DNA from: a virus
Lineage: Duplodnaviria > Heunggongvirae > Uroviricota > Caudoviricetes
IMG/VR virus record: IMGVR_UViG_638341086_000015
Coordinates: 1-46,383 of that record
Strand: one strand, 5' to 3'
Length of the DNA stretch: 46,383 bases
The notes beneath the pieces were generated by a model, which was not told the origin of the DNA, ran no database searches, and saw only the letters and a program-made list of their open reading frames with translations. This document shows positions 1 to 34,821 of the stretch, piece after piece. Within the stretch, counting starts at the first letter, position 1; each line of letters opens with the position of its first letter. Both the position numbers and the translations under genes were made by a program.

Positions 1-894
1 ATGATAAATAGCATTAATTCTTTTTTTTCCAGCATTCCTCGCAGTATATCAAGTATTACGCGTAACAGTAGCTTCACTGCCTCACAGCACAAAAGCACAC
101 CTAACACGGTAAAAACCAGCTCACCTCTTTCTCCCAGCAACAGTCCTGCCAGTGCAACAACTATTTTTAAGGTAAAAAATTCTTATACGGAATCAGGACT
201 TCAACGTTCCACATCTTATACTCAGTCAAGTATAGAAAAAAACGCTTTACATCGGCCTCTGCCTGATGTGGCTCAGCGTCTGGTGCAGCATCTTGCAGAG
301 CATGGCATTCAACCAGCCCGGAATATGGCTGAACATATTCCTCCGGCACCTAACTGGCCTGCGCCAACGCCGCCAGTACAAAATGAACAATCAAGACCTC
401 TGCCTGATGTGGCTCAGCGTCTGGTGCAGCATCTTGCAGAGCATGGCATTCAACCAGCCCGGAATATGGCTGAACATATTCCTCCGGCACCTAACTGGCC
501 TGCGCCAACGCCGCCAGTACAAAATGAACAATCAAGACCTCTGCCTGATGTGGCTCAGCGTCTGGTGCAGCATCTTGCAGAGCATGGCATTCAACCAGCC
601 CGGAATATGGCTGAACATATTCCTCCGGCACCTAACTGGCCTGCGCCAACGCCGCCGGTACAAAATGAACAATCAAGACCTCTGCCTGATGTGGCTCAGC
701 GTCTGATGCAGCATCTTGCAGAGCATGGCATTCAACCAGCCCGGAATATGGCTGAACATATTCCTCCGGCACCTAACTGGCCTGCGCCAACGCCGCCGGT
801 ACAAAATGAACAATCAAGACCTCTGCCTGATGTGGCTCAGCGTCTGATGCAGCATCTTGCAGAGCATGGCATTAATACATCTAAGCGCTCGTGA
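1..894 (+). CDS. tccP: Type III secreted effector of the TccP/EspFU family (Tir-cytoskeleton coupling protein): N-terminal secretion region followed by 47-aa proline-rich repeats
   Basis: 297-aa ORF; four full and one partial copy of the repeat RPLPDVAQRL(V/M)QHLAEHGIQPARNMAEHIPPAPNWPAPTPPVQNEQS, recalled as the TccP/EspFU repeat. Starts at window position 1, so the promoter is outside the window. Confidence 0.85.
   Translation: MINSINSFFSSIPRSISSITRNSSFTASQHKSTPNTVKTSSPLSPSNSPASATTIFKVKNSYTESGLQRSTSYTQSSIEKNALHRPLPDVAQRLVQHLAEHGIQPARNMAEHIPPAPNWPAPTPPVQNEQSRPLPDVAQRLVQHLAEHGIQPARNMAEHIPPAPNWPAPTPPVQNEQSRPLPDVAQRLVQHLAEHGIQPARNMAEHIPPAPNWPAPTPPVQNEQSRPLPDVAQRLMQHLAEHGIQPARNMAEHIPPAPNWPAPTPPVQNEQSRPLPDVAQRLMQHLAEHGINTSKRS
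253..891 (+). repeat. 141-bp tandem coding repeats (4 full units 253-816, partial fifth unit to the stop)
   Basis: Near-identical 141-nt units visible directly in the DNA; they also generate the artefactual overlapping ORF 266-706. Confidence 0.9.
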
Positions 895-20493: not shown

Positions 20494-20696
20494 AACCTCA
20501 CTCCCAGCGGACGACGGCGACGCCGGGTTGTCCCCAGTACCGACTCCGCATCATTGATCGCCCGGTTAAGCTCATCCAGAGAAGCCGCCGTATATTCAAT
20601 TCTGCGACCATCTTTCTGGACAGACACCACCCGTTTACCGGTTAATAAATCAAGGCGCGCCTGACGCAGCGCCTGCAGTTCAGCGACTGTAACCAT
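20490..20696 (-). CDS. W: Head-tail joining protein W
   Basis: 68 aa lambda W-like. Confidence 0.85.
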   Translation of the reverse strand: MVTVAELQALRQARLDLLTGKRVVSVQKDGRRIEYTAASLDELNRAINDAESVLGTTRRRRRPLGVRL

Positions 20697-22608
20697 TCAC
20701 TCCTCCGGACAGCTTCGCTGCCAGTTCTTTCAGGGTTGGCCGGGTCGTCTCTTCTTCCCGGGATTTTGCCAGTACAGCCAGATCAAGCTGCCAGCGTTGC
20801 ACGGACACACGTAATGCCGCGTAGGCATACACCAGGCAGTCCAGCGCTTCGTTACGCCGCTTTTTGTTATCCCACAGCAGACGCATCTTTCCTTTTTCCC
20901 ACTTCTCCACCAGCTCTTCCGCCACCAGTTGCTGCGCCTCTGTCTGCGAAAAAATCTCCGGATCATCAGGAAAACGGATGGCATACGACGTGGCTTCATC
21001 CGCAGGCGTGGGATCGGCTTTCATACGGGCATAGAGAATTTCTTTTGCGGTGTCCGTCCCCACTTCACACAGATACACGCCCCGCTGATTGCGGGTTTTC
21101 GGCATGGTGATCACCGGCTTGCCATAGACAGACGCGCCTTTTACCGGCAGCACCCGGAAAACACCGTGTTTTTTTGATCTCTGATAAACAATTTCACCAT
21201 CGATCCCCCCGGTGTCCCAGCAGACACGGGAAATGGTCATTTCGGTGCCATCCGCATGGCGATATTTTTTGTTGATCGCAGCATCCACACGTAACAGCGT
21301 CTCTTCCTCATCGGGACGCCCCATAATGATGATTTTATCCACCAGAAAGGCTTCCTCTCCCGGTGCCCATCCCCAGACATACATCTCAAAACGGTTTCGC
21401 TGCGAGTCAATGCCCGCCGTCAGATAAACCACCCGGGAAGGCACCGCAGCCGTGTAACGCACAACCTTATCCATCAGTACCTGGTGATCGAGTTTTTCGC
21501 CCACGGCCTCTTCCCAGGTCTCGCCCAGCGTGGTGTTCACAAAGGTTTTCAGGCCGTTGGGATCTTTCAGTGCATCCAGCCAGTCATAGACAATCTGTAC
21601 CCAGGTGGTGAACGGACTGTACGCCGTCCAGATATGGAACGTGATGGAGCGCGGCGGCGGAATTTCATCACCCCGGGCGCTGAAAAACGTCAGACCGTCA
21701 CGGGTCCACATGCCCGTGTTTTCACAGATCCACCGCCCGTTGCTCTGGTCAAGCTCAGACTGATGGATCACGCAGCCATGATGTTCACAGAGGTAGAAAA
21801 CACTTTCAGGGCTGTCCTTCTCCCATTTAAGCCCAAAAGGCGTGGACTCATCGCCAAATTTCAGATACTGCGCCTCCCCACAGTGCGGGCAGGGCACATA
21901 AAAACGCATAAAATGCGCCGACTCGTTAGCGGCTTTTTCGATCTGGCAGGTGCCTTTGATTTTAGGCGTCGAGCCGCGAATGGATTTTGGCCACACCGAC
22001 CCCTCAATACGCTTATCCCCCAGCAGGGTTGGCGAGCCCTCTTTTTCGACATCCGGCTCGAACGAGGAAAGTTCGTCATAGCAGACCACGTCCACGGATT
22101 TTTCACGGTAGTTTTTGGCGGCAGCGCCGCCCAGGCACCAGAAACCGACGCCCGATGAAAAGCGTTTCAGCGTGAGAGTATTGTCACGATGTTTACGACC
22201 CAGCCATGGGGAAAGGTCTTTCAGGCATGGCACGTTCCGAATCGTCGCCTCCACGTGAGACTTCATAAAATCTTCAGCGGCAGAATCCGTGGGCTGAAAA
22301 AGCAGACTGTTTCGGGATTTATGCTCAATAAAATACCCGACCACCCCCAGCAACATCTTTGTATAGCCAACACGGGCAGATTTAATCAGGTTAACCGTGC
22401 GAACCTGGTCGTTACCCATACAGTTCATAATGGCGATCTGGAATGGCAGCGTTTTCCATTCGCCCTCACCGTATGAGGATTCTTTAGGCAGATAATAATT
22501 TTGATCAGCCCATTCAACTGCCGTCATTGGTACAACCCTGACCAGAGGCTGCAGCGCAACCGAAACGGCAGCCATCATATTATTCAGTTGTTGCTCTGAT
22601 ATATTCAT
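20680..22608 (-). CDS. A: Terminase large subunit A
   Basis: Colinear with lambda gpA from MNIS...; start placed at that ATG (22608) rather than the upstream track start. Confidence 0.9.
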   Translation of the reverse strand: MNISEQQLNNMMAAVSVALQPLVRVVPMTAVEWADQNYYLPKESSYGEGEWKTLPFQIAIMNCMGNDQVRTVNLIKSARVGYTKMLLGVVGYFIEHKSRNSLLFQPTDSAAEDFMKSHVEATIRNVPCLKDLSPWLGRKHRDNTLTLKRFSSGVGFWCLGGAAAKNYREKSVDVVCYDELSSFEPDVEKEGSPTLLGDKRIEGSVWPKSIRGSTPKIKGTCQIEKAANESAHFMRFYVPCPHCGEAQYLKFGDESTPFGLKWEKDSPESVFYLCEHHGCVIHQSELDQSNGRWICENTGMWTRDGLTFFSARGDEIPPPRSITFHIWTAYSPFTTWVQIVYDWLDALKDPNGLKTFVNTTLGETWEEAVGEKLDHQVLMDKVVRYTAAVPSRVVYLTAGIDSQRNRFEMYVWGWAPGEEAFLVDKIIIMGRPDEEETLLRVDAAINKKYRHADGTEMTISRVCWDTGGIDGEIVYQRSKKHGVFRVLPVKGASVYGKPVITMPKTRNQRGVYLCEVGTDTAKEILYARMKADPTPADEATSYAIRFPDDPEIFSQTEAQQLVAEELVEKWEKGKMRLLWDNKKRRNEALDCLVYAYAALRVSVQRWQLDLAVLAKSREEETTRPTLKELAAKLSGGVNGYSR

Positions 22609-23089
22609 CGAGTAAATCCGGTAATTTATCCCCTGCCCGCGCACACTGATTTGCCCCCTTAGCAATAAGGGTTTTCAGATGGTCAAGATGGCGCGGTGTT
22701 AAATCAGGAAACTGTCGCTGCATGGATAAAGGGATGGAATCAAGCGTACTGGATAACGCCATTGCCAGCTTACTGAGGGCAAAAATACAGAACCCGGTGT
22801 CAATAAGTTTTCCTTTTGACACCTCATTTTTTAACTGCTGTGTAACAGCCTGTTCTGCTGTCAGTTCCCATCTGGCAATAAGCAATTTCTCCTCATAGTC
22901 GTCTTCGCTATCGCCATCAGGCACATCGTTTTTACTTCTCCTCAGATACGATATGTAAAAATCGCGCCAGGCATCCAGATCCAGTTGCCCTCGCTTATTC
23001 GATATCGGGGCACCCGGCAATTTCTGCAATCTGCGAAGCTGGCGATCGGTCAGACTTAAATGCCTGGCAACTTCAGTCTGCGTAGCCAC
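22580..23089 (-). CDS. nu1: Terminase small subunit Nu1
   Basis: 169 aa; N-terminal HTH and C-terminal region resembling lambda Nu1; GTG start after GAGGTGAGGA; overlaps the A start as in lambda. Confidence 0.8.
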   Translation of the reverse strand: MATQTEVARHLSLTDRQLRRLQKLPGAPISNKRGQLDLDAWRDFYISYLRRSKNDVPDGDSEDDYEEKLLIARWELTAEQAVTQQLKNEVSKGKLIDTGFCIFALSKLAMALSSTLDSIPLSMQRQFPDLTPRHLDHLKTLIAKGANQCARAGDKLPDLLDEYIRATTE

Positions 23090-23272
23090 TCCTCACCTCG
23101 CAAAAACTCTCACCTCACAATCACAACAAAACCGGTCATGTCCGGTTTACATGTCTGTTTTTTGTTCATGTCCGGTTCACAGAAGACCTGTTTTTATATT
23201 TTTCATATAGTTAACTTGAAGAGAAACCGGACATGGATCCCGGAAAATTTTCATAAATAGCGAAAACCCGCG

Positions 23273-23284
23273 AGGTCGCCGCCC
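23273..23284. other. cos: cosN cohesive-end site (12-nt GGGCGGCGACCT on the - strand)
   Basis: Reverse complement of 23230-23300 reads ...GGTTACGGGGCGGCGACCTCGCGGGTTTTCGCTATTTATGAAAATTTTCCGG, matching the lambda cos region from memory; lies just upstream of Nu1. Confidence 0.8.
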
Positions 23285-23491
23285 CGTAACCTGTCGGATC
23301 GCCGGAAAGGACCCACGAAAATGATAATAATTATCATCTACATGAGGTTTATCACGACATGTGTGTACGCCATCAAACCACGAGAAATAATCAATTATTA
23401 CGCAGGTATCGTATTAATTGATCTGCATCAAATTAGCGTAAAAGCAACTTCAGATAATACAAATCAGCAACACTGAATACGGGGCAACATT

Positions 23492-23716
23492 ATGTCATCA
23501 AAGAACAGAACCCGCAGAACAACAACCCGCAACATCCGATTTCCAAACCAGATAATTGAACAAATTAACATCGCTCTTGACCTGAAAGGTTCAGGTAATT
23601 TTTCAGCGTGGGTTATTGAAGCCTGCAGAAGAAGATTAATTAATGAAAAACATGCTCAATTTGTACCCAACAAAGACAAACACGACCAGAGCACCTGTTC
23701 AGACAGGTTTACTTAA
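23492..23716 (+). CDS. Small basic protein, possible ribbon-helix-helix DNA-binding protein
   Basis: 74 aa; basic N-terminus then RNIRFPNQIIEQINIAL, resembling an RHH beta-strand/helix start; family not confirmed. Confidence 0.4.
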   Translation: MSSKNRTRRTTTRNIRFPNQIIEQINIALDLKGSGNFSAWVIEACRRRLINEKHAQFVPNKDKHDQSTCSDRFT

Positions 23717-23797
23717 ACGACTTATATATGACACAAAAAGCGACCACTAAAGTCGCTTTTTCTTATGGTAACAGGCAATAACTCTCTCAGATATTTT

Positions 23798-24112
23798 TTA
23801 GCATTTTTTTGACCGCGCGTTTCCGGACGTATTCTGTTCTCCTGTCCCTTTATATCGTCGGAATACCCGCCGCTCTTCAAATCCCATTCCCAACTCAGAA
23901 TGTAGTCTGTTGACCGCTTGTTTTATTTCGGTCAGGTTCACCGGTGAAACCGGAGTCCGGCGCGCCTTACGCAAACACTCTGCTCGTTTCTGTGCCGCCA
24001 CTTTTCTTTTCTGGTCATCACTTAGCTGTACCATCACTTTTGCCCATCGTTCAGCTGCTCTCCGGTACAGTCCTTTTTTCTCCAGACATTCTGCCACGTG
24101 ATCATGTAGCAT
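23798..24112 (-). CDS. pchC: PerC-like transcriptional activator (Pch family)
   Basis: 104 aa, MLHDHVAECLEKKGLYRRAAERWA...; recalled as PerC-homologue Pch sequence; GGAGG ribosome-binding site. Paralogue assignment (pchA/B/C) is by linkage to tccP only. Confidence 0.75.
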   Translation of the reverse strand: MLHDHVAECLEKKGLYRRAAERWAKVMVQLSDDQKRKVAAQKRAECLRKARRTPVSPVNLTEIKQAVNRLHSELGMGFEERRVFRRYKGTGEQNTSGNARSKKC

Positions 24113-24577
24113 AAGTGACCTCCGATTATCTACAGACTGCCATCCTGAATTTACCTTCCCTTAATGAAATAACAATAAAAAACAAACCACGCAAAAACAA
24201 TAAAACAACACACAAAAAAAACTAAATAATAAACAAAAATAATCACCTTATTTTATTATTTTTTGAGGGAGCAATTACTGAACAAAAAACGCTGACTATA
24301 TACTCAAAACCAAACAACTATTCTGCCAATCAGGTATCATGGCAACACACGGAATTACCGTGTTTTTGCCTTCTCTGCCCATACAATACGGGCATATACT
24401 TCATTCTCTATTGTAATATTTCTATCCATGTGCCCCACTCCATTTACCTGTAAATAATATTCAAAATATTTATCACAGAAATCGTTTTTGGCCATGAACT
24501 GAGCACACTATAAAGTCCGGAACTGACTCTTTGTTAAATTACCTTAACGTTACCAGTAACACCTTCATAACAAAACA

Positions 24578-25045
24578 TCACGGTATACACTGGGTACGGA
24601 TATATTCCTGTGCTCCTTCCAGTTGCTTCTGCATTGCCATCAGCCGTTCTCTGAGGATGAAATAATCCCGTTCAGCGGTGTCTGCCAGTCGGGGGCCGGT
24701 TGCATTATCCACGCCGGAGGTGCCGGTGGCTTCACGCACGGTACCGGAGCAGGTGGCGTTGATCCGCAGGCGCTTACGACCAGCGGCAACATCAGCACGC
24801 AGAGTTTCATTTTCAGCTCTCGCATCGGCTAATTCCCTCGAGTATCTGGCATCAAGTGCAGCGACATCACGCTGGCGTATCTGCATATCAGTAATTGTCG
24901 CGTTCGCCAGCTCCAGCTCACTGGCTTTTTTATCGCGCTGCTCTTTGTAGATGATGGCGTGATCACGGTAATGATTCAGCCCCAGACTAAGCGCACCACA
25001 GGCCACCAGCAGGACAATGATAACCACGCACAGAACACGGTTCAT
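24578..25045 (-). CDS. Rz: Spanin inner-membrane subunit Rz (i-spanin)
   Basis: Aligns with lambda Rz from MNRV... (NHYRD..AI.YK.QRDK, VDNA..PRLADTAERDYF..RERL). Start placed at ATG 25045. Confidence 0.85.
   Translation of the reverse strand: MNRVLCVVIIVLLVACGALSLGLNHYRDHAIIYKEQRDKKASELELANATITDMQIRQRDVAALDARYSRELADARAENETLRADVAAGRKRLRINATCSGTVREATGTSGVDNATGPRLADTAERDYFILRERLMAMQKQLEGAQEYIRTQCIP
24640..24825 (-). CDS. Rz1: Spanin outer-membrane lipoprotein Rz1 (o-spanin), embedded in Rz in the +1 frame
   Basis: 61-aa ORF inside Rz: MRELKMKLCVLMLPLVVSAC with lipobox and proline-rich body (CVKPPAPPAWIMQPAPDWQTPLNGIIS), like lambda Rz1. Confidence 0.8.
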   Translation of the reverse strand: MRELKMKLCVLMLPLVVSACGSTPPAPVPCVKPPAPPAWIMQPAPDWQTPLNGIISSSENG

Positions 25046-25380: not shown

Positions 25381-25914
25381 CTATCTGTCGATGTCCCAGC
25401 ACGCCAGCGCGCTCTCCTGGTCACGCCGTGAGACCTGACCGTAGCAATTATTTGAACGGATACGGCAGTCTCTGCCACCGTCCTTAATCCACCAGCGAAT
25501 CGCCTCACAGGCACCTTTTCGATCGCCTGCATTAATTCGTTTATAAAACGTCGACGGGAAGCACTTACCGGGGCCAATGTTGTACGGACAGAATGACGCG
25601 ATCCCCGCTTTCTGGGGTTCGGTCAGCGGCACCCGGATGTTTTTCTCCACCCATGCCAGCGCCTTGTCACGTTCGATGGCATTAACCCGGTCGCATTTTT
25701 CCTTTGACAGCTTCATGCCAGGAATAACAGGCTTACCATCCACCAGAATGGCACCACGGCAGATGGTCCAGATCCCCGCACCATCACGGTATGCCGTGGT
25801 GTGGTTACCTTCCTTTTCATCCAGAAACTGGTCGAGGATTTCAGGCGCAGAAGCACCTGCACCAATCAGCGCCAGAACGGCAGCCGACAGGCCGTATTTT
25901 ATTTTTTCGTTCAT
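25381..25914 (-). CDS. R: SAR endolysin R (T4-lysozyme-like, glycoside hydrolase family 24)
   Basis: 177 aa; weakly hydrophobic Gly/Ala-rich signal-anchor-release segment (YGLSAAVLALIGAGASA) followed by the E-x8-D-x5-T catalytic triad. Confidence 0.85.
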   Translation of the reverse strand: MNEKIKYGLSAAVLALIGAGASAPEILDQFLDEKEGNHTTAYRDGAGIWTICRGAILVDGKPVIPGMKLSKEKCDRVNAIERDKALAWVEKNIRVPLTEPQKAGIASFCPYNIGPGKCFPSTFYKRINAGDRKGACEAIRWWIKDGGRDCRIRSNNCYGQVSRRDQESALACWDIDR

Positions 25915-29106: not shown

Positions 29107-29551
29107 GAATCCTCCCGGCCGGGATAATATTGTGAGTAAAATGAGGAGCGGGCTGAAGTCCGGAAGTTACAGGACAATGGCAGAAGAGAGACAACAGCCC
29201 GCAATACGAAAAAGGCCGCGCTATTGCGCAGAGTGATTACTGTCGGATATTATTCGCCAGCTGAAATATTACTTCACGTTTTGTTGTTTATTCCTTGCCG
29301 CCCGCGTCTCCCTGCGCGGGCTTTTTTTGTCCATAAGAAAGCCCCTCCGGAGAGGGGCTGGAGAGTGGCGCTATGTGCCATTGCATGGTGCCGGGTGCCT
29401 CCCGGTGAATTCAGTACCAGCACCTGAATCCGCGATTATCCCATATACCTACTCGCTGATTGCCCCTCCGCACAGGGGGATTCACCATGCCAGTTTCTTT
29501 TAACAAACTCCCCGCAAACCAGACAACAGTCAACCGCCTGAATTGTGAGAC

Positions 29552-29585
29552 ATTTAAAAAAAAGGCCCGCAAAAGCGAGCCAGGG
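29552..29585 (-). terminator. Rho-independent terminator downstream of the tRNA cluster
   Basis: - strand GGCUCGC-UUUU-GCGGGCC hairpin followed by UUUUUUUU. Confidence 0.55.
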
Positions 29586-29595
29586 AAAATAAGTG

Positions 29596-29672
29596 TGGCG
29601 CGTTGTACTGGATTCGAACCAGTGACCGATTGCTTAGAAGGCAATTGCTCTGTCCGGCTGAGCTAACAACGC
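29596..29672 (-). tRNA. argO: tRNA-Arg (anticodon UCU)
   Basis: Manual cloverleaf on reverse complement: 7-bp acceptor stem GCGTTGT/ACAACGC, D-arm GCTC..GAGC, anticodon loop CTTCTAA, T-arm ACTGG-TTCGAAT-CCAGT, 3' CCA. Confidence 0.85.
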
Positions 29673-29685
29673 AGGATACAGATAA

Positions 29686-29762
29686 TGGACCGCCTTCGGG
29701 GACCCGAACTCCGCGCAACCAGCTTCGAAAGCTGGCGCTCTTTCCTGATGAGCTAATGGCGG
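29686..29762 (-). tRNA. argN: tRNA-Arg (anticodon UCG)
   Basis: Manual fold: anticodon stem CCAGC/GCTGG with loop TTTCGAA, 3' CCA; one mismatch each in acceptor and T stems. Confidence 0.65.
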
Positions 29763-29769
29763 TATGTGA

Positions 29770-29845
29770 TGGTGGCCCTTGCTGGATTTGAACCAGCGAC
29801 CTGGCGATTATGAGTCGCTCGCTCTCACCACTGAGCTAAAGGGCC
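29770..29845 (-). tRNA. ileZ: tRNA with CAU anticodon (Ile2/Met type, ileZ-like)
   Basis: Manual fold: acceptor GGCCCTT/AAGGGCC, D-arm GCTC-AGTGGTGA-GAGC, anticodon loop CTCATAA, T-arm GCTGG-TTCAAAT-CCAGC, 3' CCA. Confidence 0.8.
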
Positions 29846-34420: not shown

Positions 34421-34576
34421 TTACTCCTCAGGTTCGTAAGCTGTGAAGACAGCGACCTCCGTCTGGCCGGTTCGGACTCGTACCTCGCAGAGGTCTTTCC
34501 TCGTTACCAGTGCCGTCACTATGACGGTTAAACAGATGACGATCAGGGCGATTAACATCGCCTTTTGCTGCTTCAT
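34421..34576 (-). CDS. hok: Hok/Gef-family type I toxin (51 aa, single transmembrane helix)
   Basis: MKQQKAMLIALIVICLTVIVTALVTRKDLCEVRVRTGQTEVAVFTAYEPEE, near-identical in pattern to HokC/Gef. Confidence 0.85.
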   Translation of the reverse strand: MKQQKAMLIALIVICLTVIVTALVTRKDLCEVRVRTGQTEVAVFTAYEPEE

Positions 34577-34633
34577 AGCCTGCTTCTCCTTGCCTTTCGG
34601 CACGTAAGAGGCTAACCTACGTTTGTGAAGCAT
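34421..34633 (-). CDS. mok: Mok-like modulator frame (same frame as hok, N-terminally extended)
   Basis: 70-aa ORF co-terminal with hok, the arrangement recalled for chromosomal mokC/hokC. Confidence 0.6.
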   Translation of the reverse strand: MLHKRRLASYVPKGKEKQAMKQQKAMLIALIVICLTVIVTALVTRKDLCEVRVRTGQTEVAVFTAYEPEE

Positions 34634-34821
34634 AGATTGGGCCTCAGATTAATGTTAAGCGTCTTGCAGGACGCGTAATGTTAACTGGGGCTTTTCTCTG
34701 TCTGCCTTACGGTGGCATGCCCGAGGCAGACAGCCTCAAGCACCCGCAGCAATTCTACTTAACTCTCGCTTTACCGCAAACCGTTTTTACCCGATATGGG
34801 AATTCCCATATCGTAATGAAT

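What the first reader, a model, noticed from the sequence alone, without database searches (positions are those of the whole stretch)
23285..24577. Virulence regulator pch and a small divergent DNA-binding ORF placed between the lysis cassette and cos
Lambda carries bor in this position. Here a 104-aa PerC-like Pch activator sits with a long AT-rich upstream region (24113-24577, runs of A/T and AACAA repeats typical of nucleoid-protein-bound promoters). A divergent 74-aa basic ORF with a possible ribbon-helix-helix start lies beside it. Whether the two form a regulatory pair is untested.
Basis: partly seen in the sequence, partly recalled or inferred. Interest (0 to 1): 0.5.

Follow-up and report, generated by a model that had tools for sequence, protein, structure and literature searches.

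The report
Known pchA moron beside lambda-backbone YlcI gene
The 104-aa gene is an exact copy of the well-studied EHEC virulence activator PchA, and the small neighbouring gene is a widespread, uncharacterised lambdoid "YlcI/YnfO" gene (probably a ribbon-helix-helix DNA binder) that lies tail-to-tail with pch and shows no sign of being its dedicated partner.

Summary
The sequence features are real, but the proposed pairing is not supported. ORF 23798-24112(-) is PerC-family (Pfam E 3.8e-44) and 104/104 identical to PchA of E. coli O157 Sakai. Its 465-bp upstream region is about 99.7% identical to the Sakai pchA locus. ORF 23492-23716(+) is a YlcI/YnfO (DUF3950) protein. It is a real gene: synonymous codon changes outnumber non-synonymous ones 12:5 to 21:5. 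It is probably an Arc/Mnt-like ribbon-helix-helix DNA binder.

The two genes are convergent, not divergent. An 81-bp spacer between them holds a 10-bp-stem bidirectional terminator.

The small gene belongs to the lambdoid backbone. It is found in 4165 of 5426 complete E. coli genomes, including K-12 ylcI/ynfO, and in phage lambda itself, where RefSeq does not annotate it. pch is found in only 672 genomes. In Sakai Sp4 the small gene is cut by IS629 next to the pchA copy that the EHEC literature studies.

The documented phage-borne regulator of pchA is the sRNA DicF, and this window also carries DicF (41910-41961).

Verdict: a known pch moron and a known family of unknown function. A side result is that DUF3950 homologues in satellite elements sit behind repeated palindromic operators, which suggests a repressor role.

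The parts
23273..23284 (.). cosN cohesive-end sequence AGGTCGCCGCCC (reverse complement of the lambda left end GGGCGGCGACCT). It marks the phage genome end. The finding starts at the next base.
   Evidence: Read directly. The flanking 207 bp align with the lambda right end at 179/207 identity. The lambda end sequence is from my own knowledge.
23308..23314 (.). cosQ-like heptamer AGGACCC (reverse complement GGGTCCT, lambda 48473-48479).
   Evidence: Identical in the window/lambda alignment. That this heptamer is cosQ is from my own knowledge of lambda. The requirement of cosQ for packaging termination is stated in PMC9026076.
23317..23338 (.). AT-rich palindrome ATGATAAT-A-ATTATCAT, overlapping a 17/19 match to the Fur-box consensus. 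It is conserved in lambda (GTGATAATGATTATCATC). Function unknown.
   Evidence: (I4, I12).
23390..23422 (.). Inverted repeat ATCAATTATTACG-N7-CGTATTAATTGAT, 70-100 bp upstream of the small ORF and conserved in lambda. It is a candidate operator or promoter element for the small ORF (inference).
   Evidence: I5: 13-nt arms, 92% complementary; conserved in lambda. The in-frame 'ORF' that covers it shows 2 synonymous against 6 non-synonymous codon changes versus lambda, so the conservation is at the DNA level.
23492..23716 (+). 74-aa YlcI/YnfO-family (DUF3950) protein, a probable Arc/Mnt-like ribbon-helix-helix DNA binder. Residues 1-45 are backbone sequence shared with lambda and K-12. The tail (about residues 46-74) is variable and travels with the pch module.
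23735..23761 (.). Bidirectional intrinsic terminator AAAAAGCGAC-CACTAAA-GTCGCTTTTT in the 81-bp spacer between the two convergent genes.
   Evidence: I13: 10-nt arms, 100% complementary. The hairpin is present in both strands' folds. The spacer is 81/81 identical in a copy whose flanking coding sequences are only 94-96% identical. The consensus scan missed it because the A and T runs join the stem.
23798..24112 (-). pchA: PerC-family anti-silencing activator of LEE1/ler, co-oriented with the late operon.
   Evidence: Pfam PerC E 3.8e-44. 104/104 identical to Sakai ECs_1091 PchA. Mechanism from PMC4764244.
24113..24354 (-). AT-rich (GC 0.31) pch leader/promoter region. It is the fastest-evolving part of the module. 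On the sense strand it is U-rich. A weak sigma-70-like match lies at 24345-24317 (TTGCCA-17-AATAGT).
   Evidence: It is 79% identical with indels in strain A25, while the flanks are 94-100%. The pch Shine-Dalgarno sequence is predicted to pair with the coding sequence at +94..100 or +158..164, in line with the published anti-SD model (PMC7769764).
24355..24495 (-). Conserved 46-aa ORF between Rz and pch (phrog_2157, function unknown). RefSeq does not annotate it. Its coding status is unresolved.
   Evidence: 98.6% identity in A25; 1 synonymous and 1 non-synonymous change. Not annotated.
41910..41961 (+). DicF sRNA gene in the same prophage. DicF is the published trans-activator of pchA translation.
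   Evidence: Rfam RF00039, 76.7 bits against a gathering score of 48. DicF-pchA regulation is described in PMC7769764, PMC7873438 and PMC11774850.

Best explanation
The interval holds two independent units that happen to be neighbours.

(1) The pchA moron.
- It comprises the 46-aa ORF, the AT-rich leader and pch (24577 down to 23798) and the terminator, and it extends into the 3' tail of the small ORF.
- It sits in the lysis-to-cos slot where lambda has bor.
- In a lysogen pch is transcribed from its own upstream region. Its translation is held back because the Shine-Dalgarno sequence pairs with the coding sequence. The prophage sRNA DicF, also encoded in this window, releases that block. These points come from the literature.
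- PchA then displaces H-NS/StpA/Hha at the LEE1 promoter and switches on ler and the LEE (literature).
- Because pch points the same way as the late operon, Q-antiterminated late transcription should also read through it after induction (inference, consistent with the reported SOS enhancement of group 1 pch).

(2) A lambdoid backbone gene, YlcI/YnfO (DUF3950), on the opposite strand.
- It starts about 200 bp inside cos.
- It most likely encodes a dimeric Arc/Mnt-like ribbon-helix-helix DNA-binding protein made in the lysogen. I infer that it autoregulates through the conserved inverted repeat upstream, and that antisense late transcription silences it during lytic growth.

The two genes converge on a shared bidirectional terminator that insulates them. 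There is no evidence that the small protein regulates pch.
For: Identity of pch:
- Pfam PerC E 3.8e-44.
- 104/104 identical to Sakai PchA, with about 99.7% DNA identity from 23642 through the leader into Rz.
- The 780-nt pch-plus-leader unit is at least 99% identical in 657 of 687 records.

Backbone status of the small gene:
- The segment from cos to the small ORF is in 4165 of 5426 genomes (10172 places), against 672 genomes (1881 places) for pch.
- Homologues are K-12 ylcI and ynfO, and an unannotated 64-aa ORF in lambda at complement(48109..48303).
- Homology to lambda and K-12 stops at codon 45.

The small ORF is a real gene:
- Synonymous:non-synonymous codon differences are 12:5, 19:4 and 21:5. 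The adjacent in-frame pseudo-ORF gives 2:6.

RHH fold:
- The AF2 core has pLDDT about 80, with an extended segment followed by helices 19-32 and 37-56.
- There is a weak PHROG match to a HicB-like family.
- hhalign places NIRFP in register with Arc NLRWP and Mnt NFRMP.

Independence of the two genes:
- They are convergent, with a perfect 10-bp-stem hairpin flanked by A5 and T5.
- The small ORF is truncated by IS629/IS1203 beside pchA in Sakai Sp4 and in strain 2159. The pch genes of EHEC Sakai are described as essential for LEE expression in PMC4764244.

Regulation and mechanism:
- PchA mechanism: PMC4764244.
- DicF: PMC7769764 and PMC7873438, and DicF is present in the window.
- SOS enhancement of group 1 pch: PMC6265319.

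Repressor-like behaviour of the family:
- In 37 loci from other Enterobacterales, the gene is usually divergent from primase operons and convergent on int/alpA.
- Two or three copies of a locus-specific palindrome bracket its promoter. Examples are GGTACGTACC twice around TATAAT in L004 and L063, and GTGTGCGCACAC-type sites three times in L057, L073 and L074.
Against: - No expression data for this locus were available. The promoter scan found fewer sigma-70-like sites than shuffles give (2 found, 3.9 expected), so both promoters are unverified.
- The Sakai truncation does not exclude action in trans, because O157 genomes carry several other ylcI-like copies (up to 12 places per genome).
- From the pch side the association is tight. 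In 659 of 672 pch-bearing genomes at least one copy has the whole cos-ylcI-pch stretch. The spacer is perfectly conserved. A functional link through convergent transcription therefore cannot be ruled out.
- In strain A25 the same ylcI-pch module sits next to an HNH gene without the lambda-type upstream repeat, so that repeat may serve cos rather than ylcI.
- My crude DicF-pch duplex test was no better than shuffled DicF.
Confidence: 0.75

Rival explanations
1. The two genes are a functional pair coupled by convergent transcription (an excludon-like arrangement), or YlcI binds the pch region. Expression of one would then damp the other.
For: - The K-12 counterpart pair ybcW-ylcI is listed as a convergent excludon from RNA-seq (PMC12288877).
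- The 81-bp spacer is 100% conserved while the flanking coding sequences differ by 4-6%.
- The variable C-terminal tail of the small protein travels with the pch module.
- Nearly every pch-bearing genome has an intact cos-ylcI-pch copy.
Against: - A strong bidirectional terminator lies between the genes. It should limit overlap of the transcripts.
- The small gene is disrupted beside pchA in O157.
- At most 18% of ylcI-like places can be next to pch.
- No palindrome resembling the ones upstream of ylcI or in satellites was found in the pch leader.
Confidence: 0.12
2. YlcI/YnfO is an accessory DNA-packaging or cos-associated factor and not a transcription regulator. It might bind near cosQ/cosN to modulate terminase, or protect the prophage cos.
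For: - In lambda-type prophages the gene starts about 200 bp from cosN. In HK97-type prophages it abuts the HNH/TerS/TerL block.
- Two natural proteins fuse DUF3950 to the N-terminal ~50-residue part of a Terminase_2 small terminase: P0206 at 45.4 bits and P0188 at 29.1 bits, against a cut-off of 26.1.
- Conserved palindromes lie between cosQ and the gene.
Against: - The gene is on the strand opposite to the late/packaging operon.
- The fusion proteins lie in the regulatory zone of PICI-like satellites next to int/alpA, not beside a cos or a terminase gene.
- In 37 loci from other genera the neighbours are primases, integrases and AlpA, and no terminase or lysis family is among the 25 most frequent neighbour families.
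- From my own knowledge, lambda cosmid packaging needs only cosQ-cosN-cosB.
Confidence: 0.1
3. The small protein is the RHH antitoxin of a toxin-antitoxin pair.
Against: There is no co-oriented downstream gene here. The next feature is a terminator and then the convergent pch. None exists in lambda either. The structural similarity is generic to the RHH fold.
Confidence: 0.03

Closest known systems
PchA (ECs_1091) of E. coli O157:H7 Sakai prophage Sp4; group 1 Pch (PchA/B/C)
   Same: The protein is 104/104 identical. The leader, terminator and Rz junction are about 99.7% identical in DNA, with the same 465-bp spacing from Rz.
   Different: In Sp4 the lysis-pchA block is flanked by IS629 and ISEc8, and the small ORF is truncated. 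Here the lambda-type cos-ylcI-pch-Rz order is intact.
PerC of the EPEC EAF plasmid (record NC_010862)
   Same: Same Pfam family. 47% identity over Pch residues 2-88. Both activate LEE1/ler (PMC4456613).
   Different: PerC is plasmid-borne in the perABC operon, while pch is a prophage moron. Dependence of LEE on the regulator differs between EPEC and EHEC (PMC4764244).
Lambda bor and other morons between Rz and cos
   Same: Same slot: an autonomous, lysogen-expressed accessory gene with its own terminator, placed between the lysis cassette and cos.
   Different: bor is transcribed against the late operon. pch is co-oriented with it. The gene products are unrelated.
YlcI (DLP12) and YnfO (Qin) of E. 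coli K-12; unannotated 64-aa ORF of lambda, complement(48109..48303)
   Same: Same family, with the N-terminal 45-50 residues nearly identical. Same position just inside cos on the anti-late strand. Convergent on a small late-strand gene: ybcW in DLP12, lambdap79 in lambda.
   Different: The C-terminal tail differs. The convergent neighbour here is pch. No function is known for any member.
Arc and Mnt repressors of phage P22 (RHH; immI region inside the late operon)
   Same: Small basic proteins with an N-x-R-x-P strand motif followed by helix, G-x-S/N turn and helix. The profile alignment is in register. Mnt is likewise a small repressor gene embedded against late transcription (own knowledge).
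   Different: There is no significant sequence homology (hhalign probability under 5%). No antirepressor target is evident here. DNA binding is untested.
DicF-pchA post-transcriptional circuit (Melson and Kendall 2019, read only through reviews)
   Same: Both partners are present in this one prophage: DicF at 41910-41961 and pch at 23798-24112. The pch Shine-Dalgarno sequence is predicted to pair with its own coding sequence.
   Different: I could not reproduce a specific DicF-pch duplex computationally, and the primary paper was not available.

Membership tests
PerC/Pch family (PF06069) | Full-length match to the PerC profile above the curated cut-off. | tested here: met
   149.3 bits against a cut-off of 22.6, E 3.8e-44, profile positions 1-89 of 90.
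Group 1 Pch (PchA/B/C) of EHEC | 104-aa protein with sequence identity to PchA/B/C. | tested here: met
   104/104 identical to Sakai PchA ECs_1091. PchB and PchC were not fetched.
Group 1 Pch (PchA/B/C) of EHEC | Activates LEE1/ler by relieving H-NS silencing. | not testable with these tools
   Shown for the identical protein in PMC4764244. Whether the source strain of this window carries a LEE is unknown.
Prophage moron | Accessory gene in a conserved slot, absent from related phages, with atypical composition and its own terminator. | tested here: met
   The slot holds bor in lambda and ybcW/ybcV in DLP12. The leader has GC 0.31 against 0.52 for the window. The terminator is at 23735-23761. 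An independent promoter is not verified.
YlcI/YnfO (DUF3950, NF041551) | Match to the DUF3950 and YlcI_YnfO_N profiles above their cut-offs. | tested here: met
   63.8 bits against 25, and 34.4 bits against 30. RefSeq annotates the identical protein as YlcI/YnfO family.
Ribbon-helix-helix (Arc/MetJ-like) DNA-binding proteins | N-terminal beta-strand, then helix A, a G-x-S/T/N turn and helix B. | tested here: inconclusive
Ribbon-helix-helix (Arc/MetJ-like) DNA-binding proteins | Obligate dimer in which the two strands pair, and binding to repeated or palindromic operators. | not testable with these tools
   Only a monomer could be modelled. Indirect support: repeated palindromes flank promoters of homologues in satellites, and an inverted repeat lies upstream here.
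Divergent regulator-target gene pair | The two genes share a 5' intergenic (promoter) region. | tested here: not met
   The genes are convergent. Starts are at 23492 and 24112, stops at 23716 and 23798.
Dedicated (co-inherited) regulatory pair | The two genes co-occur and are jointly intact across genomes. | tested here: not met
   10172 places in 4165 genomes against 1881 places in 672 genomes. The small gene is truncated next to pchA in Sakai and strain 2159. It is present without pch in lambda and K-12.
Type II toxin-antitoxin (RHH antitoxin) | A co-transcribed partner toxin gene. | tested here: not met
   No co-oriented ORF lies downstream before the terminator and the convergent pch.

The most novel reading that the evidence does not exclude
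DUF3950 (YlcI/YnfO) would be an unrecognised family of Arc/Mnt-like ribbon-helix-helix repressors of enterobacterial mobile elements.

In P4-like and PICI-type satellites it would be the immunity-type repressor. It sits between int/alpA and the primase operon, behind two or three locus-specific palindromic operators.

In lambdoid prophages, including phage lambda itself where the gene is missing from the RefSeq annotation, it would be a lysogen-expressed, autoregulated gene just inside cos. Antisense late transcription would switch it off. Its variable tail and DNA binding could tune neighbouring morons such as pch, or the cos region.
Probability: 0.3. Interest if true: 0.5.

Novelty: already known. 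Interest (0 to 1): 0.25.

Why it matters
pchA is a master switch for the LEE type III secretion system in EHEC. Knowing that this prophage carries an intact pchA module together with its sRNA activator DicF helps in judging the virulence-regulatory load of the host strain. None of that is new biology.

The only open question exposed here concerns the small neighbour. A gene present in about three-quarters of complete E. coli genomes, and in phage lambda itself, still has no function. The satellite-element contexts found here give a concrete and testable lead: a repressor with palindromic operators.

Tried and rejected
- Promoter consensus scan of 23050-24700: only 2 weak sites, fewer than shuffles give, so neither promoter could be located.
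- The terminator scan missed the real hairpin. It was recovered by the repeat search and by folding.
- AACAA as a repeat family: rejected. It reflects composition only.
- Profile search of PDB sequences with the DUF3950 alignment: one spurious Argonaute hit.
- DicF-pch pairing. Unrestricted RNAduplex gave meaningless full-length duplexes. The longest ungapped complements were only 8-9 nt and G-U rich. A restricted duplex at +146..187 (-29.1 kcal/mol) was no better than shuffled DicF, 30% of which did as well.
- The primary papers on pchA regulation (Honda 2009; Melson and Kendall 2019) are not held, so reviews were used.
- Literature on 'orf64' of lambda refers to a different ORF (lambdap73, between Q and S) and not the cos-proximal one.
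- The satellite operator TGGTACGTACCA has no match in the window at up to 2 mismatches.
- tblastn of Pch and of the 46-aa ORF against isolated phages found almost nothing. These sequences occur in prophages, not in the phage collection.
- The upstream in-frame ORF 23321-23476 was rejected as coding (2 synonymous, 6 non-synonymous changes).
- The window is not colinear with the best-matching genome record at a fixed offset (15497 mismatches over 41501 positions). Annotations of that record outside the matched 1.5 kb were therefore not transferred.
Full report
**Layout**

The window is a lambdoid E. coli prophage drawn in the reverse of the lambda map. Features in order (window coordinates):
- Large terminase, 20680-22665(-).
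- A Nu1-like small terminase, 22580-23089(-).
- cosN, AGGTCGCCGCCC, 23273-23284.
- A cosQ-like heptamer, 23308-23314.
- The 74-aa ORF, 23492-23716(+).
- An 81-bp spacer.
- The 104-aa ORF, 23798-24112(-).
- A 465-bp AT-rich stretch.
- Rz/Rz1, from 24578, and lysozyme, 25381-25914(-).

The finding's coordinates therefore span exactly the interval from cos to Rz. The 1.5 kb around it is 100% identical to E. coli O39:NM F8704-2. RefSeq annotates that stretch as 'YlcI/YnfO family protein' and 'PerC family transcriptional regulator'.

**The 104-aa gene**

- It matches Pfam PerC at E 3.8e-44 over the whole profile.
- It is 104/104 identical to PchA (ECs_1091) of O157:H7 Sakai prophage Sp4.
- The DNA from 23642 through pch, the 465-bp upstream region and into Rz differs from Sp4 at only a few positions.
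- It is 47% identical to PerC on the EPEC plasmid record NC_010862 over residues 2-88.
- The pch-plus-leader unit occurs in 672 of 5426 complete E. coli genomes, at a median of 3 copies, and is at least 99% identical in 657 of 687 records. This is a recently spread, essentially invariant module.
- Lambda carries bor in the same slot. DLP12 carries ybcW and ybcV there.

**How pch works (from the literature)**

- PchA/B/C are required for full LEE expression (PMC4456613).
- Pch binds AT-rich DNA and activates LEE1 only when H-NS/StpA/Hha silence it. It reduces H-NS occupancy, so it is an anti-silencer (PMC4764244).
- Upstream inputs include LrhA, and Lrp/LeuO in response to butyrate.
- An anti-Shine-Dalgarno sequence inside the coding region blocks translation. 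The sRNA DicF relieves the block under low oxygen (PMC7769764 and PMC7873438).
- This window encodes DicF at 41910-41961 (Rfam 76.7 bits), so the established sRNA partner of pchA is on the same prophage.
- Folding predicts that the pch Shine-Dalgarno region pairs with +94..100 (probability about 0.6) or +158..164 (about 0.3). I could not show a DicF duplex better than chance.
- pch is co-oriented with the late operon. Group 1 pch genes are reported to be enhanced by SOS induction (PMC6265319). That fits read-through from the late promoter, which is my inference.

**The AT-rich region**

- GC is 0.31 for 24113-24354 and 0.33 for 24113-24577, against 0.52 for the window.
- AACAA is locally dense but irregularly spaced, and it is not enriched window-wide.
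- In a diverged copy (strain A25), 24113-24354 is only 79% identical and has indels. The pch coding sequence is 94% identical (10 synonymous, 7 non-synonymous changes). The stretch 24355-24577 is 96-99% identical.
- That conserved distal part contains a 46-aa ORF on the pch strand that matches phrog_2157 end to end (E 2.7e-37). PGAP does not annotate it. Its status is unresolved.
- Only a weak sigma-70-like site was found (24345-24317).

**The 74-aa gene**

- It is DUF3950 / YlcI_YnfO, with pI 10.5.
- It is a real coding gene. Between the window, lambda and a third copy, differing codons in the first 50 are 12:5, 19:4 and 21:5 synonymous:non-synonymous. The conserved in-frame stretch just upstream gives 2:6.
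- Phage lambda has an intact 64-aa homologue at complement(48109..48303). NC_001416 does not annotate it. The 'orf-64' of the lambda literature is a different gene.
- The segment from cos to this gene is found in 4165 of 5426 genomes (10172 places), including K-12 ylcI and ynfO.
- Homology to lambda and K-12 ends at 23626, which is codon 45. The C-terminal tail is variable and here belongs to the pch-linked segment.
- The family is narrow: 104 representatives at E<=0.001 among 1.84 billion proteins.
- No functional literature was found.

**Fold of the small protein**

- Twenty diverse homologues share invariant I15, R16, F17, I25, F37, W40, V41 and C45.
- AlphaFold2 gives an extended segment, then helices 19-32 and 37-56. 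Core pLDDT is 78-86 and the mean is 67.
- hhalign puts TTRNIRFPNQIIEQINIALDLKG in register with Arc PQFNLRWPREVLDLVRKVAEENG (E 0.008) and with Mnt (E 0.072).
- A PDB sequence search found nothing.
- I rate an RHH DNA-binding fold as probable but not proven.

**Relationship between the two genes**

- They are convergent, not divergent.
- The spacer holds AAAAAGCGAC-CACTAAA-GTCGCTTTTT. It forms a hairpin on both strands and is 81/81 conserved in strain A25.
- In Sakai Sp4 and in O157 strain 2159 the small gene is cut by IS629/IS1203, which leaves about 25 codons. pchA beside it is intact.
- From the pch side the linkage is tight: 659 of 672 pch-bearing genomes have a full cos-ylcI-pch copy. From the ylcI side at most 18% of copies can be next to pch.
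- This asymmetry is what a moron inserted next to a backbone gene would produce.
- The K-12 pair ybcW-ylcI has been listed as a convergent 'excludon' (PMC12288877). Weak transcriptional cross-talk therefore remains possible.

**Context of the family elsewhere**

- In strain A25 the same ylcI-pch module sits in an HK97-type prophage, directly next to HNH/TerS/TerL. The lambda-type upstream DNA is absent there.
- In E. coli CP027459 a PICI-like element carries a 60-aa DUF3950 gene and a 120-aa protein that fuses DUF3950 to the N-terminal part of a Terminase_2 small terminase. Both lie between int/alpA and a D5-type primase operon. A second such fusion is P0188.
- Of 37 homologous loci from other Enterobacterales, 27 have the gene flanked by opposite-strand genes on both sides. 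Upstream neighbours are often primases: Toprim/Zn-ribbon in 7, D5/DUF5906 in 5-6, DUF927 in 3. Downstream neighbours are often integrases (11) and AlpA (7). No terminase or lysis family is among the 25 most frequent neighbour families.
- Their upstream regions carry two or three copies of a palindrome that differs between loci:
  - GGTACGTACC, or GGTAnnTACC, twice around a TATAAT and abutting the start codon.
  - GTGTGCGCACAC, GGTGCACAAACACC, GTGTTTAAACAC and similar, three times.
- That is the signature of a repressor/operator system. Which protein binds these sites is inferred, not shown.
- In the window, the comparable elements are an inverted repeat at 23390-23422 and a palindrome at 23317-23338 next to cosQ. 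Both are conserved in lambda.

**Verdict**

The pch call and the moron position are right, and they are already known. The small ORF is a known family of unknown function and probably an RHH protein. The 'divergent regulatory pair' idea fails on orientation, on distribution and on the natural IS disruption. The residual interest lies in the uncharacterised YlcI/YnfO family.

Noticed in passing
window 41910-41961 (+): A DicF sRNA gene (Rfam 76.7 bits) lies in the same prophage as pchA. DicF is the published activator of pchA translation, so target and sRNA are co-resident.
   Followed up: partly
NC_001416 (lambda) complement(48109..48303) = L002 3110-3304(-): Phage lambda has an intact 64-aa YlcI/YnfO-family ORF just inside the right cohesive end. 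The RefSeq record does not annotate it. It is under purifying selection relative to the window copy.
   Followed up: yes
window 24355-24495 (-): A 46-aa ORF between Rz and pch matches phrog_2157 over its full length (E 2.7e-37). It is 98.6% conserved in a copy where pch is only 94% identical. PGAP does not annotate it. Whether it codes for a protein is unknown.
   Followed up: partly
window 23317-23338: The palindrome ATGATAAT-A-ATTATCAT next to cosQ overlaps the only site in the window with at least 16/19 matches to the Fur-box consensus (17/19). A similar sequence is present in lambda.
   Followed up: no
window 23129-23235: There are three copies of CATGTCCGGTT(T): 23137-23148, 23167-23177, and inverted at 23224-23235. 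They lie between the small-terminase start and cosN. They look like cosB R-type terminase-binding repeats whose sequence differs from what I remember of lambda's.
   Followed up: no
window 23321-23479 (+): An upstream ORF is in frame with the small gene and separated from it by a single TGA and four codons. Some database proteins read through it. Compared with lambda it shows 2 synonymous and 6 non-synonymous changes, so it is conserved DNA and not a coding sequence.
   Followed up: yes
L004 5545-5589 and 6001-6363; L008 4714-5103: PICI-like satellites carry DUF3950 genes behind paired perfect palindromes (TGGTACGTACCA twice around TATAAT). They also carry proteins that fuse DUF3950 to the N-terminal part of a Terminase_2 small terminase.
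   Followed up: partly
L016-L048, L075, L088 (genome-contig hits): About 35 assemblies of unrelated taxa (Streptomyces, Pseudomonas, Cohnella, Flavobacterium, MAGs and others) contain lambda-like copies of this gene (about 83-92% identity to the window protein). They sit on contigs of about 3.5 kb or about 48 kb, or at contig ends. This looks like lambda control-DNA contamination rather than real hosts.
   Followed up: no
L003 32130-33202 and 37387-39826 (Sakai Sp4); L010 1083-2419: In O157 the lysis-pchA block of Sp4 is bracketed by IS629/IS1203 and ISEc8, and it is inverted relative to the terminase genes. The IS truncates the YlcI-family gene.
   Followed up: partly
window 29329-29845 and 34571-34745: Other RNA genes in the prophage: STnc100 (138 bits), three tRNAs downstream of the Q region, and a sok antitoxin RNA (117.5 bits). 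A hokD toxin gene is annotated at the corresponding place in the related record L001.
   Followed up: no
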